64,000 nucleotides of DNA, taken from assembly GCF_024298765.1 (NCBI RefSeq), contig NZ_CP101210.1. One strand, given 5' to 3'. Below are positions 3,001 to 6,000 of the stretch, piece after piece. Every line of letters starts with the position of its first letter. The first letter of the stretch is position 1. Made by a program: the position numbers. This DNA comes from Escherichia coli (GTDB lineage Bacteria > Pseudomonadota > Gammaproteobacteria > Enterobacterales > Enterobacteriaceae).

Positions 3001-6000
3001 ACGTTCGTCCGCGGCGATCACCAGAATTTTATGTTTACCGCGATACGGTTTTGGATAGTCCACGCCATCAAGATCAGAGACAGGACTGGTATATTGGCTA
3101 AGCGAATATTCTGAAGGGAAGAATGCATTATCTTCAGCAATATCGACCTGCGGATTTTTACTTGTTTGAACAGTCATAGTGTATTCCTTATTGTTGCTTA
3201 GTTAGGGTAGTCACTATATTTGCGACTGAGCTGGTCGCTATTTTTAACCAGTCTGGAAAATTGAGTCAATATATCGAAAGCGGTAGTCTGCGGGTGTAAG
3301 TATGTAATGATGATGCTGCACTGGTGTTGAATATTATTCACGCCAAATTTTCCTTATTGAGCAACGTCGTCGCAAGTGGCCTCAATGATTTTAGACCATT
3401 ATCAGAGATGCGGGGCGGAGGGAAGAGATTTAGTGCTGTGGAATATTGTGGTGCTGATCAATATTTATATCCCGGATTGGTAGAGAAAAAGCTTATTTCA
3501 TGCACTATTTTTGCAAATATTTCTATATGGGAGGCGTGTTTGTTGCGGATTAATACATAAAGAAATGTATTTGGAGTGTTGGCTGGAAGAGTAGCTGGTA
3601 GAGATATTGTGCCAGGAGGGGCAGGGTAAGGTGCTGTATCGATATGCTTTGGCAATTGCGTGTGCCGCAGATGGAGATGAAATGCCAATAAAAAAGCCTG
3701 AGTTCGATGAGGGACGAACTCAGGCTAGTGTTATGTTTTACAGTAACACGCCGCGGCGCGTTGGCTGATTAGAACTGGTAGACGATACCAAATGCGAGTT
3801 GGTCGTCGGTGTTCAGTCCATGAGCGAGAACATAATCACTCTTATCAAGCAGGTTGATCTGATAAGCGGTATATACGTTCATGTTCTTATTGAAGTAATA
3901 CCAGGTACCGATTTCAATGTAGTTCAGACGATCAGAATCTTTGTAACCTGCTACGTCCAGTGCTTTAGAATAGGAGTAACCGATGGATGGACGCAGACCG
4001 AAGTCGAACTGATATTGCAGAACAGCTTCGAAGTTTTGTGTTTTGTTCACAACATCACCGTCGTCGGAATTCATGTTGTGAGATTCACCGTACATCACAG
4101 CAGCATAGACGTTGTTGGGATCATATTTTGTTGACAGTGCCCAAACTTCTGCTTTTTCACCTTTACTATCACTAGACTGGAAATCAGTACGGTCAGAGTT
4201 TGCGTAAGCACCAGTAAATGAGAAACCGTCAATAGTGTAAGTTACAGATAAACCATGGCCATCGCCATTTGCTTTGTAGTTGCCTGTACCTTCATTTTTA
4301 CCCTGATATTGCAGAGCAAAATTTAGACCTTCAACCATGCCAAAGAAATCTGTGTTACGATAGGTTGCAACACCGTTGGTACGGTTGGTCATGAACAGGT
4401 CAGTACCAGCCCATGAATCACCGCCCCACTCAACAAACATATCAGTAAATGCTTCTGCATCATACGCGACACCGACATTACGACCATAGTCGAATGAACC
4501 AAAATCTTTGTAACTCAAACCAGCATAAGCCAAACGAGTTTGGTCAGGGTTGTGTCTGTTTGATGCTTCCAGGTCTAGTTCAAACTGACCGTAACCAGTC
4601 AATTCAGGGTTGATCTGAGTTTCACCTTTCACGCCTACACGGGCATAAGAGGTATCTTGAGAATTATCGCCTTTTTCACCATTTTCACGGTCGGTCAGAA
4701 TGCGCTCACCAACCATCTTGCCGTACAGATCCAGTTTATTGCCATCTTTATTATAAATTTCAGCCGCATTTGCTGCGCCAGCAACTAATAACGCCGGGAC
4801 CAGCATTGCCAGAACTTTTCTTTTCATTATGTATTCCCTTGTGATTATAATCTTCATGAATATATCAATAAGTGCCGTTATCCAAAAAAAGCACATTTGG
4901 ATACTATTCTATGAAGTTCATTTTATTTTAAAGATTACATGCAACAAATATATTTAAAAGATTTCAAAATGTTTCTAATCTATTTAATATAATTCAGAAT
5001 TATGAATTCTAAACATAAGTATTCATGAAAATTATCAATTCATATCAATATATTATGAGTTTAGCGGAAAGATAGGGGGTATCAATGATTGATGCGCTAA
5101 ACGGCTGGTGTGATCACGCGCACATTAATGAAGGCATAAAAAAGCCGGCATCATGCCGGCCCAAAAAATATAAACAAGACGATAAAAGGCTAATAACGGA
5201 GGCATCATGACACAGAAAAATAAAAAGGTATAATTGTATTCAGTGCTAATATATTGATTAAATGAATTAATAAAGCCGATATCAAAGATAAATAAAATCG
5301 CTCAAAACGATTTTTCCTGTATTCACTGCCGTTGCGCAAAATTTATCTATTTTTTCAAAAAATGATTGAGTCTTGACTGGCTCATTCAATGTGGAAAAAT
5401 GTGACTTTTATCACATAATAGTACTAAGTCTGAATTTTCCGGGTTATCTCAAAATGGAATACGGTTCGACAAAGATGGAAGAGAGGCTCTCTCGCAGCCC
5501 TGGTGGCAAACTGGCTTTGTGAGCTTTCTATACATGGTGTGGCTATTTCGTCTGGGCAATGGCGCGTTACATCTGGGTGATGAGCCGGATCCCCGATGCC
5601 CCCGTGTCGGGATTTGAAAGCGATTTAGGCTCTACCGCGGGAAAGTGGTTAGGGGCACTGGTCGGATTTTTATTTATGGCTCTGGTCGGGGCATTGTTAG
5701 GCAGCATTGCCTGGTACACCCGACCTCGTCCCGCACGTAGCAGACGCTATGAATAAAAACTGCTAAGGTGGCGACTCTTTGGCAACGGAGCGCGTATGGA
5801 CTTACAACACTGGCAGACACAGTTCGAAAACTGGTTGAAAAACCATCATCAGCACCAGGACGCGGCCCATGACGTGTATCATTTTCGCCGCGTCTGGGCT
5901 ACGGCACAGAAGCTGGCGGCAGATGATGACGTCGATATGCTGGTGATTTTAACCGCCTGTTATTTCCACGATATTGTGAGCCTGGCGAAAAATCATCCGC

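What the first reader, a model, noticed from the sequence alone, without database searches (positions are those of the whole stretch)
3769..4896. Intact YedS-type porin where K-12 carries a pseudogene
The yedS position next to hchA encodes an uninterrupted OmpC-family porin with a signal peptide and terminal Phe. In K-12 yedS is annotated as a disrupted pseudogene, as I recall, so this strain may express an additional general porin relevant to permeability and phage or colicin receptors.
Basis: partly seen in the sequence, partly recalled or inferred. Interest (0 to 1): 0.3.

Follow-up and report, generated by a model that had tools for sequence, protein, structure and literature searches.

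The report
Intact YedS porin, a common allele
This E. coli strain carries an unbroken copy of the minor outer-membrane pore gene yedS, which is a pseudogene in the lab strain K-12; this is ordinary, because most E. coli have an intact porin gene at this spot and its link to carbapenem entry is already published.

Summary
On the minus strand, 3769..4827 encodes an uninterrupted 352-aa porin (Pfam Porin_1, E=1.6e-109) with a 21-aa signal peptide and a C-terminal ...VYQF. It lies between hchA and rseX/drpB, the K-12 yedS position.

MG1655 yedS is annotated as a pseudogene, with an internal stop and a frameshift.

Two corrections:
- **Not the repaired K-12 gene.** Promoter region, 5'UTR, signal peptide and terminator are 90-99% identical. 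The mature-protein body is only about 55% identical in DNA and 59-61% in protein. The locus holds at least three deep lineages: A (this one, 352 aa), B/C (357/371 aa) and K-12-type (395-404 aa).
- **Intact is the norm.** Lineage A occurs in about 1,150 of 5,426 complete E. coli genomes, including CFT073 and NC101. B/C alleles, and most sampled K-type alleles outside K-12 and O157, are intact too.

The protein is closer to OmpF/OmpK35 than to OmpC and passes none of NCBI's OmpF, OmpC or PhoE cut-offs. Pore-constriction residues are conserved, and dN/dS within the lineage is 0.2.

YedS is already linked to carbapenem susceptibility (Warner 2013). Expression here is untested. Verdict: real, already known, low interest.

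The parts
3769..4827 (-). yedS coding sequence, lineage A: 352 codons plus stop. A general diffusion porin precursor.
   Evidence: Translation has no stops. Pfam Porin_1 E=1.6e-109 over residues 27-352. Identical CDS annotated in AR_452 as WP_000824345.1. AF2 model has 16 strands and its top Foldseek hit is OmpK35 at TM 0.86-0.89.
4765..4827 (-). Signal-peptide coding part (MKRKVLAMLVPALLVAGAANA, cleavage after ANA).
   Evidence: Read directly from the sequence. 21/21 residues are identical in all E. coli yedS lineages examined.
3772..4720 (-). Divergent 'cassette': the mature-protein body that distinguishes lineage A from the B/C and K-12-type alleles.
   Evidence: Sliding identity to K-12 drops from 41-50/50 to 12-37/50 between about 4720 and about 3770, then recovers to 48-50/50. 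Body is 54-68% identical in DNA versus 90-99% for the flanks.
4828..4896 (-). Most likely untranslated leader, containing the Shine-Dalgarno AAGGGA at 4840-4835.
   Evidence: No SD precedes ATG 4896. RefSeq starts the CDS at 4827. The sequence from -60 to +30 is identical in four lineages.
3687..3726 (-). Intrinsic terminator downstream of yedS: 12-bp stem with 7 G-C pairs, 8-nt loop, then a T-run.
   Evidence: scan_promoters_terminators. The region is conserved with K-12.
4828..5136 (-). AT-rich regulatory region between rseX and yedS (28% GC; 23-25% in the 4800-5099 windows). It carries weak sigma-70-like sites at 5085..5058 and 5013..4986.
   Evidence: Composition. The promoter-like sites are no more frequent than in shuffled sequence, so they are leads only.
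5109..5124 (.). CRP-box-like palindrome TGTGATCACGCGCACA, about 290 nt upstream of the yedS start.
   Evidence: It is the only match in the window, against 0.16 expected. The corresponding K-12 site (2033766, ggTGTGAtcaggcGCACAtta) is listed as a CRP footprint assigned to yedS in PMC12871828.
5137..5226 (-). rseX, an Hfq-binding sRNA, co-oriented with and immediately upstream of yedS, with its own terminator (5162..5142).
   Evidence: Rfam RF01401 at 96.9 bits against a gathering score of 50. Terminator. Annotated at the same place in MG1655.
2326..3177 (-). hchA (glyoxalase III), the downstream neighbour that fixes the locus.
   Evidence: ORF; RefSeq annotation.
5475..5756 (+). drpB (yedR), the divergent upstream neighbour. 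Here it carries an internal stop.
   Evidence: PGAP note 'internal stop'. Translation shows LAL*AFY where K-12 has LALWAFY.

Best explanation
Window 3769-4827 (minus strand) is an intact, selectively maintained allele ('lineage A') of the chromosomal porin gene yedS.

Inferred mechanism, from family knowledge. The 352-aa precursor is exported by Sec and its 21-aa signal peptide is removed. The mature 331-aa chain is inserted by BAM through its C-terminal G-x-x-Y-x-F signal. It forms a trimeric 16-stranded beta-barrel general diffusion channel. Loop L3 folds into the barrel, and its acidic D129/E133 face the basic cluster K37/R63/R98/R149 (OmpF K16, R42, R82, R132, D113, E117). This gives a non-specific, probably cation-preferring pore for small hydrophilic solutes, including beta-lactams and carbapenems.

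Inferred regulation. The gene is probably a 'quiescent' or conditionally expressed porin. It sits behind a 23-28% GC leader next to the H-NS/StpA-silenced sRNA rseX. It has a CRP site upstream, and its K-12 mRNA falls on sigma-E induction.

Shown here: gene integrity, family, fold, conserved pore residues, locus, population frequency, and purifying selection.

Inferred only: expression level, trimerisation, selectivity, and antibiotic, phage or colicin relevance.
For: Gene and family:
- Intact ORF with signal peptide and terminal Phe.
- Pfam Porin_1 E=1.6e-109.
- Full-length sequence matches to solved porins: OmpK35 440 bits, Klebsiella PhoE 401, E. coli OmpF 369, OmpC about 313.
- All six OmpF constriction residues align to identical residues, and K37, R63, R98, D129 and R149 are invariant across 43 homologues.
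- AF2 model (pLDDT 78) has 16 strands. Foldseek top hits are OmpK35 and OmpF at TM 0.83-0.89.

Locus and maintenance:
- SD, terminator and locus synteny match K-12 yedS.
- dN/dS = 0.195 between the window allele and the NC101 allele.
- Lineage A is present at 95% or higher identity in 1,162 of 5,426 complete genomes. It was intact in all 6 full-coverage genomes sampled.

Regulation and function context:
- AT-rich leader.
- rseX adjacent, and RseX is H-NS/StpA-silenced (PMC8313858).
- CRP footprint assigned to yedS (PMC12871828; site present at 5109-5124).
- yedS(ompS1) mRNA drops 2.5-fold on sigma-E induction, alongside ompC, ompF, phoE and ompN (PMC2731931).
- YedS is linked to carbapenem susceptibility by Warner et al. 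2013, as summarised in PMC4048246 and PMC11267920.
Against: - No expression data exist for this strain. The leader composition and the analogy with OmpS1, OmpN and NmpC suggest the gene may be silent under laboratory conditions.
- The reported MicF control (my recollection of the Warner 2013 abstract) is not supported by simple duplex energetics. MicF 5' seed against the yedS translation-initiation region gives -7.7 kcal/mol (z=+1.4). The same seed against ompF gives -27.1 (z=-4.4).
- Promoter-like hexamers are no more frequent than in shuffled sequence.
- I could not establish which yedS lineage Warner's isolate carried, because the paper is not held.
- The AF2 model has low confidence in parts of L2 and L3 (pLDDT below 50 at residues 91-94 and 139-147).
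Confidence: 0.85

Rival explanations
1. Cryptic gene. The ORF is intact, but the gene is effectively silent in this strain through H-NS silencing and sRNA repression. It therefore adds nothing to permeability or receptor repertoire in practice.
For: - The leader is 23-28% GC.
- The neighbouring rseX is H-NS/StpA-silenced in K-12.
- The Salmonella quiescent porins OmpS1 and OmpS2 are H-NS-silenced and need LeuO (PMC4264507).
- No convincing promoter stands out above chance.
Against: - dN/dS of 0.2 and retention of an intact gene in all sampled full-coverage lineage-A genomes argue that it is expressed often enough to be under selection.
- K-12 yedS mRNA is detectable and regulated.
- A CRP footprint lies upstream.
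- Warner 2013 reports a functional YedS in a clinical isolate.
- A YedS-like porin was detected by proteomics in an O26:H11 strain, though its lineage was not verified.
Confidence: 0.3
2. Recent horizontal replacement. The locus was overwritten by an ompF/ompK35-type gene imported from Klebsiella or Enterobacter, so the gene is a xenologue rather than a YedS allele.
For: - The best PDB and database matches outside E. coli are Klebsiella porins, some named 'outer membrane pore protein F', at 66-69% identity.
- The L3 motif is VEWGGD, as in OmpK35, not PEFGGD.
- CDS GC is 43%, against 50% for the window.
- The breakpoints are sharp.
Against: - The closest Klebsiella homologue (P0024, 69.7%) does not lie at the ompF locus. 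It lies at the syntenic dcm-yedJ-drpB-porin position, with a near-identical signal peptide and SD.
- E. fergusonii has a B/C-type allele at the same place.
- 69% identity is far too low for a recent transfer.
- Lineage A has its own internal diversity: 97% between phylogroups, plus E. coli variants at 76-87%.
Confidence: 0.1
3. Specialised channel. The protein is a PhoE-like anion or phosphate porin, or a substrate-specific channel, rather than a general porin.
For: The PhoE profile scores nearly as high as OmpF (407 vs 414 bits). Klebsiella PhoE is the third-best PDB match.
Against: - The score is below the PhoE equivalog cut-off of 599.
- The residue aligned with PhoE K125, the anion-selectivity determinant, is N148.
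- The constriction residues are those of OmpF.
- The gene is not at the phoE locus.
Confidence: 0.05

Closest known systems
E. coli YedS (K-12 pseudogene b4496; functional YedS of a carbapenem-resistant clinical isolate, Warner et al. 2013, AAC 57:1935)
   Same: Same chromosomal slot (hchA | yedS | rseX | drpB). The sequence from -60 to +30 is identical. The signal peptide is identical. The upstream 300 nt and the terminator region are 94-98% identical.
   Different: The mature protein belongs to another lineage. It is 352 aa against about 397 codons, with 59-61% aa identity to intact K-type alleles. L3 carries VEWGGD instead of PEFGGD. External loops L4-L7 are much shorter, with 51-60 indel columns, all but two of them (one in strand 1, one in a periplasmic turn) in external loops. 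The lineage of Warner's isolate is unknown to me.
Klebsiella pneumoniae OmpK35 / E. coli OmpF (classical large-channel general porins)
   Same: Best solved-structure matches by sequence (440 and 369 bits) and by fold (TM 0.83-0.89). The six constriction residues and the 16-strand architecture are conserved. The VEWGGD L3 motif is shared with OmpK35.
   Different: Only about 59% (OmpK35) and 55.5% (OmpF) identical. The score is below NCBIfam's OmpF equivalog cut-off (414 vs 583). The gene lies at a different locus, not asnS-ompF-aspC. There is no MicF-complementary leader like that of ompF.
drpB-adjacent porin of the Klebsiella oxytoca complex (P0024) and of Escherichia fergusonii (P0070)
   Same: Syntenic position downstream of dcm-yedJ-drpB. 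The signal peptide and SD are near-identical. Identity to the window protein is 67.8-69.7%.
   Different: These are different species, and the downstream neighbours differ. E. fergusonii has a second, unrelated-lineage porin in tandem. The E. fergusonii gene belongs to the B/C lineage (85-86% to E. coli B/C), not to A.
Quiescent enterobacterial porins (Salmonella OmpS1/OmpS2, E. coli OmpN, NmpC)
   Same: Porin_1 family genes that are present and intact but poorly expressed in the laboratory. OmpS1 is H-NS/StpA-silenced and LeuO-activated. K-12 yedS has been labelled 'ompS1'. The window gene has a similarly AT-rich leader.
   Different: Orthology to Salmonella OmpS1 was not tested here. Silencing of this allele is inferred, not shown.

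Membership tests
General bacterial porin family (Pfam PF00267 Porin_1; OmpF/OmpC/PhoE type) | Significant full-length match to the family profile | tested here: met
   366.9 bits against a cut-off of 23.7, covering profile positions 1-337 of 337.
General bacterial porin family (Pfam PF00267 Porin_1; OmpF/OmpC/PhoE type) | Cleavable Sec signal peptide and C-terminal aromatic (Phe) beta-signal | tested here: met
   MKRKVLAMLVPALLVAGAANA|AE... and ...GIVYQF, read from the translation. No dedicated predictor was run.
General bacterial porin family (Pfam PF00267 Porin_1; OmpF/OmpC/PhoE type) | 16-stranded beta-barrel with L3 folded into the lumen | tested here: met
   The AF2 model has 16 strands and a long helix-containing segment at residues 115-153 between strands 5 and 6. 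Foldseek TM is 0.83-0.89 to OmpK35 and OmpF. This is a model, not an experimental structure, and L3 is partly low-confidence.
General bacterial porin family (Pfam PF00267 Porin_1; OmpF/OmpC/PhoE type) | Constriction-zone charges (OmpF K16, R42, R82, R132 opposite D113, E117) | tested here: met
   They align to K37, R63, R98, R149, D129 and E133. Five of the six are invariant in 43 homologues.
General bacterial porin family (Pfam PF00267 Porin_1; OmpF/OmpC/PhoE type) | Homotrimer forming water-filled diffusion channels | not testable with these tools
   Needs biochemistry or electrophysiology.
OmpC subfamily (NCBIfam NF007841) | Score at or above the curated cut-off of 484 bits | tested here: not met
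   390.9 bits. K-type yedS alleles do pass, at 535-543 bits.
OmpF equivalog (NCBIfam NF007446) | Score at or above 583 bits, and the ompF locus | tested here: not met
   413.9 bits. The locus is hchA/drpB, not asnS/aspC.
PhoE equivalog (NCBIfam NF007544) | Score at or above 599 bits, and Lys at the PhoE-125 position | tested here: not met
   407.3 bits. The aligned residue is N148.
YedS (defined by locus) | Porin gene between hchA and rseX/drpB, sharing the regulatory region and signal peptide with K-12 yedS | tested here: met
YedS (defined by sequence orthology to the K-12 allele) | Mature-protein region allelic, roughly 90% or more identical, to K-12-type yedS | tested here: not met
   The body is 54-55% identical in DNA and 59-61% in protein.
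Salmonella OmpS1 orthologue / H-NS-silenced quiescent porin | Orthology to ompS1; H-NS/StpA silencing relieved by LeuO | not tested
   No Salmonella sequence was fetched. The only evidence is the literature label 'yedS (ompS1)' and the AT-rich leader.

The most novel reading that the evidence does not exclude
The yedS slot is a long-lived porin 'cassette' polymorphism. At least three lineages (A, B/C, K-12-type) are as divergent from one another (55-68% aa) as the paralogues OmpF and OmpC (65%). They alternate in E. coli behind one conserved promoter, leader and signal-peptide module and in front of one conserved terminator.

The lineages are partly shared across species. A B/C allele sits at the same slot in E. 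fergusonii, and A/B/C-like genes sit at the same slot in the K. oxytoca complex.

The proposal is that frequency-dependent selection from phages, colicins or antibody maintains the lineages. The K-12 and O157 pseudogenes would then be one more way of escaping that pressure.

The sequence pattern is shown here. The selective cause is inference, and so is the claim that it has not been described before. I found no paper on it among the 21 papers mentioning yedS.
Probability: 0.35. Interest if true: 0.4.

Novelty: already known. Interest (0 to 1): 0.12.

Why it matters
There is little here that is new. RefSeq already annotates this exact protein (WP_000824345.1), and YedS has a published role in carbapenem susceptibility.

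There are three practical points:
- K-12 is a poor reference for this locus. 'yedS' in other strains can mean proteins only about 60% identical to the K-12 reading frame.
- Strains that lose OmpF and OmpC under antibiotic pressure may still have an OmpF/OmpK35-like back-up channel. This is worth checking when interpreting carbapenem MICs.
- The multi-lineage structure of the locus could be a useful marker, and a candidate for studying phage- or immunity-driven porin diversification.

Tried and rejected
Rejected. It has no SD, the extension would bury the signal peptide, and RefSeq and all lineages support 4827.
2. **Direct MicF pairing with the yedS translation-initiation region.** Not supported. 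dG is -7.7 (z=+1.4), against -27.1 (z=-4.4) for the ompF positive control. Extending the target to -250..+60 did not help.
3. **Origin of the A/B/C and K lineages from an ancestral tandem pair, prompted by the two tandem porins of E. fergusonii.** Rejected. The second E. fergusonii gene is only 62-64% identical to K-type alleles and has a different signal peptide.
4. **Recent import of ompK35/ompF.** Rejected. The closest Klebsiella homologue is itself drpB-adjacent, and identity is only 69%.
5. **Divergence confined to surface loops.** Only partly true. All but two of the indel columns are in external loops, but strands are also only 59-72% identical.
6. **Rfam MicX hit overlapping the 3' end** (E=0.81, 17.8 bits against a gathering score of 75). 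This is chance.
7. **Reading Warner et al. 2013 (PMC3623324).** The paper is not held. Statements about it rest on citing papers and on my memory of the abstract.
8. **A literature search for allelic or balancing-selection work on yedS**. It was badly specified and returned nothing relevant.
9. **Promoter scan.** Hits equal the shuffle expectation, so no promoter is claimed.
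Full report
**Observation.** The ORF listing returns the ORF 3769..4896 on the minus strand (375 aa) exactly as reported. Translation from the internal ATG at 4827 gives a 352-aa protein with no stops. It begins MKRKVLAMLVPALLVAGAANA|AEIYNK and ends GIVYQF. The ATG at 4827 is preceded by AAGGGA at 4840-4835, whereas the ATG at 4896 has no such site. RefSeq annotates the identical DNA of strain AR_452 as a 1059-nt CDS, WP_000824345.1 'porin'. At the window's base composition, the probability of 352 consecutive sense codons is about 3e-8. A 12-bp G+C-rich hairpin followed by a T-run lies at 3726..3695, just after the stop codon.

**Locus.** The gene order is hprR, hprS, hchA (minus strand), porin (minus strand), rseX sRNA (5226..5137, Rfam 96.9 bits), drpB/yedR, yedJ, dcm, vsr, yedA, yedI. 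This is the order around yedS in MG1655, where yedS (b4496) is annotated as a pseudogene. The K-12 sequence (1193 nt) has an in-frame TAG near codon 160 and a frameshift in the middle.

**What the protein is.**
- It matches Pfam Porin_1 over the full profile (E=1.6e-109).
- Against solved structures, the best sequence matches are Klebsiella OmpK35 (440 bits), Klebsiella PhoE (401), E. coli OmpF (369) and E. coli PhoE (366). OmpC-type porins come later, at about 303-313 bits.
- NCBIfam scores are OmpF 414, PhoE 407 and OmpC 391. All are below the curated cut-offs of 583, 599 and 484. It is a classical general porin but not an OmpC, OmpF or PhoE equivalog.
- In the HMMER alignment to OmpF, the constriction residues K16, R42, R82, R132, D113 and E117 align with K37, R63, R98, R149, D129 and E133. 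The position of PhoE's selectivity lysine K125 is N148. Five of the six constriction residues are invariant in a 43-sequence alignment.
- An AlphaFold2 model from that alignment (pLDDT 78, pTM 0.75) has 16 strands. A long helix-containing segment (residues 115-153) sits between strands 5 and 6.
- Foldseek places OmpK35 (5o77) and OmpF on top, with TM 0.83-0.89.
- The L3 motif is VEWGGD, as in OmpK35, rather than the PEFGGD of OmpF, OmpC and K-12 yedS.

**It is not the repaired K-12 gene.** tblastn of the window protein against the K-12 locus gives 59% and 45% identity in the two reading-frame pieces. A DNA alignment of the whole interval shows 92-100% identity from hchA to the stop codon and from codon about 36 upstream through rseX. 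Between about 3770 and about 4720 it shows only 24-74% identity per 50-nt window.

I fetched representative alleles from other genomes. The locus holds at least three deep lineages:

| Lineage | Length | Examples |
|---|---|---|
| A | 352 aa | this window, CFT073, NC101 |
| B/C | 357 and 371 aa | 90% identical to each other |
| K-12-type | 395-404 aa | intact forms in several strains |

Protein identities are A vs B/C 68%, A vs K 59-61%, A vs OmpF 55.5% and A vs OmpC 54.4%. For scale, OmpF vs OmpC is 64.7%.

Across all lineages, the upstream 300 nt, the first 105 nt of the CDS and the downstream 300 nt are 90-99% identical to the window. The CDS body is 54-68% identical. The sequence from -60 to +30 is identical in the four lineages checked. 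All but two of the indel columns fall in external loops L1, L2 and L4-L8, but strands are also only 59-72% identical. K-type alleles pass NCBIfam's OmpC subfamily cut-off at 535-543 bits, which is why PGAP labels them 'ompC'. A, B and C pass none of the cut-offs.

**How common.** All counts are from 5,426 complete E. coli genomes.
- The 601-nt variable centre of the window allele is found at 95% or higher identity in 1,162 genomes, 645 of them at 99% or higher. Coverage is 80% or more in 1,144.
- The lineage C centre is found at 95% or higher in 901 genomes. A further roughly 720 carry lineage B, at about 84%.
- The K-12 centre is found with 80% or more coverage in 1,643 genomes, 516 of them at 95% or higher.
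- All six lineage-A genomes sampled at full coverage have an intact 352-aa gene: AR_452, NC101, Ec-U1, HeN100, CFT073 and A42.
- Two partial-coverage lineage-A hits are IS-disrupted: CT01, and WCHEC005784.
- The B and C examples are intact.
- Among K-type alleles, NCTC9699, ETEC1748, Ecol_517, ET896 and ZYB39 are intact. MG1655 and EPI300, O157:H7 F8952 and 118UI are pseudogenes.
- The protein database holds 2,356 member sequences in the 90% cluster of the window protein. It also holds many intact 395-397-aa K-type proteins, some named 'outer membrane protein yedS' or 'S1'.

An intact porin at this slot is therefore the rule, and K-12 is the exception.

**Evolutionary context.** The closest non-E. 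coli homologue is a 351-aa Klebsiella oxytoca-complex porin, 69.7% identical. It is not at the ompF locus. It lies at the syntenic dcm-yedJ-drpB-porin position, with a near-identical signal peptide and ribosome-binding region. E. fergusonii has a B/C-type allele (85-86% identity) at the same position, followed by a second porin. That second porin has a different signal peptide and is only 62-64% identical to K-type alleles. This rules out a recent ompK35 import. It also does not support a 'lost tandem partner' origin for the K lineage. Within lineage A, dN/dS between the window and NC101 alleles is 0.195 (18 synonymous and 13 non-synonymous differences), which indicates purifying selection.

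**Regulation (mostly inference).**
- The 309 nt between rseX and the start codon are 28% GC, falling to 23-25% in the 4800-5099 windows. The CDS is 43% GC and the window 50%.
- RseX is reported as H-NS/StpA-silenced in K-12 (PMC8313858).
- Salmonella's quiescent ompS1 is H-NS/StpA-silenced and LeuO-activated (PMC4264507).
- A CRP footprint assigned to yedS is listed at K-12 coordinate 2033766 (PMC12871828). The matching palindrome TGTGATCACGCGCACA is at window 5109-5124. It is the only match in 64 kb, against 0.16 expected.
- K-12 'yedS (ompS1)' mRNA falls 2.5-fold on sigma-E induction, together with ompC, ompF, phoE, ompN and lamB (PMC2731931).
- Sigma-70-like hexamers exist (for example 5085..5058) but are no more frequent than in shuffled sequence.
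- From my memory of the Warner 2013 abstract, YedS is controlled by MicF through MarA. A duplex calculation does not show ompF-like complementarity: -7.7 kcal/mol (z=+1.4) against -27.1 (z=-4.4) for ompF. Any MicF effect would have to be indirect or use other contacts.

**Comparison with what is known.** YedS is already described as a porin that is non-functional in K-12 but functional in a clinical isolate, where it affects carbapenem resistance together with marR (Warner et al. 2013). I could not open that paper. [quoted passage not shown] The yedS-yedR intergenic region is also used as a host-source marker. [quoted passage not shown] That is compatible with expression of a non-K lineage, but I did not verify which gene it was. 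The exact protein is in RefSeq.

**Verdict.** The finding is real but already known and ordinary. The one aspect I did not find described is the multi-lineage 'cassette' structure of the locus. The pattern is shown here, but its cause is not.

Noticed in passing
window 5475-5756 (+): drpB (yedR, a cell-division protein) carries an internal stop: LAL*AFY where K-12 has LALWAFY. PGAP flags it as a pseudogene in the near-identical strain AR_452. A 65-aa ORF restarts at 5559. drpB is also frameshifted in O157:H7 F8952.
   Followed up: partly
window 10858-12552 (+): dgcQ (yedQ, the cellulose-regulating diguanylate cyclase) has an internal stop (…LALLA*AMEHD…). It is annotated 'internal stop' in AR_452.
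   Followed up: partly
window about 26340-30300: An emrE-ybcL-ybcM block sits between fliE and yedK. From my own knowledge, these genes lie in the DLP12 prophage region in K-12. In AR_452 the block is followed by an IS200/IS605 tnpA remnant and a TnpB/InsQ gene. The window diverges from AR_452 exactly here, from 28.7 kb.
   Followed up: no
window 1-28691 versus 28705-48116: The window is 99.96% identical to AR_452 for the first 28.7 kb. It then becomes mosaic: 91% identity over 30.2-37.3 kb, a break around the flagellin gene, and 98.8% afterwards. This suggests recombination around the fliC region.
   Followed up: partly
window 5137-5226 (-) against 4768-4811: The 5' 40 nt of RseX show modest predicted complementarity to the yedS signal-peptide coding region (+16..+59). 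dG is -25.3, with z=-2.3 against shuffles. This is a weak lead that the adjacent sRNA could target yedS, as it does ompC and ompA.
   Followed up: partly
L024 4001-5086 and 5663-6772 (E. fergusonii): E. fergusonii carries two porin genes in tandem at the yedS slot. One is a B/C-type YedS. The second is a 369-aa porin with a different signal peptide (MKKLTVAVSAVAASILMAMSAQA). They are followed by a TrkH-family gene before hchA.
   Followed up: partly
E. coli genome hits: PGAP names the K-type yedS alleles 'ompC: porin OmpC', so many E. coli genomes appear to have two ompC genes. IS2, IS1 and IS3 insertions into yedS occur in several strains (CT01, PK8566, WCHEC005784).
   Followed up: partly
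window 5109-5124: A CRP-box palindrome lies just downstream of the rseX terminator. It matches a published in-vitro CRP footprint assigned to yedS in K-12, with one spacer base different.
   Followed up: partly
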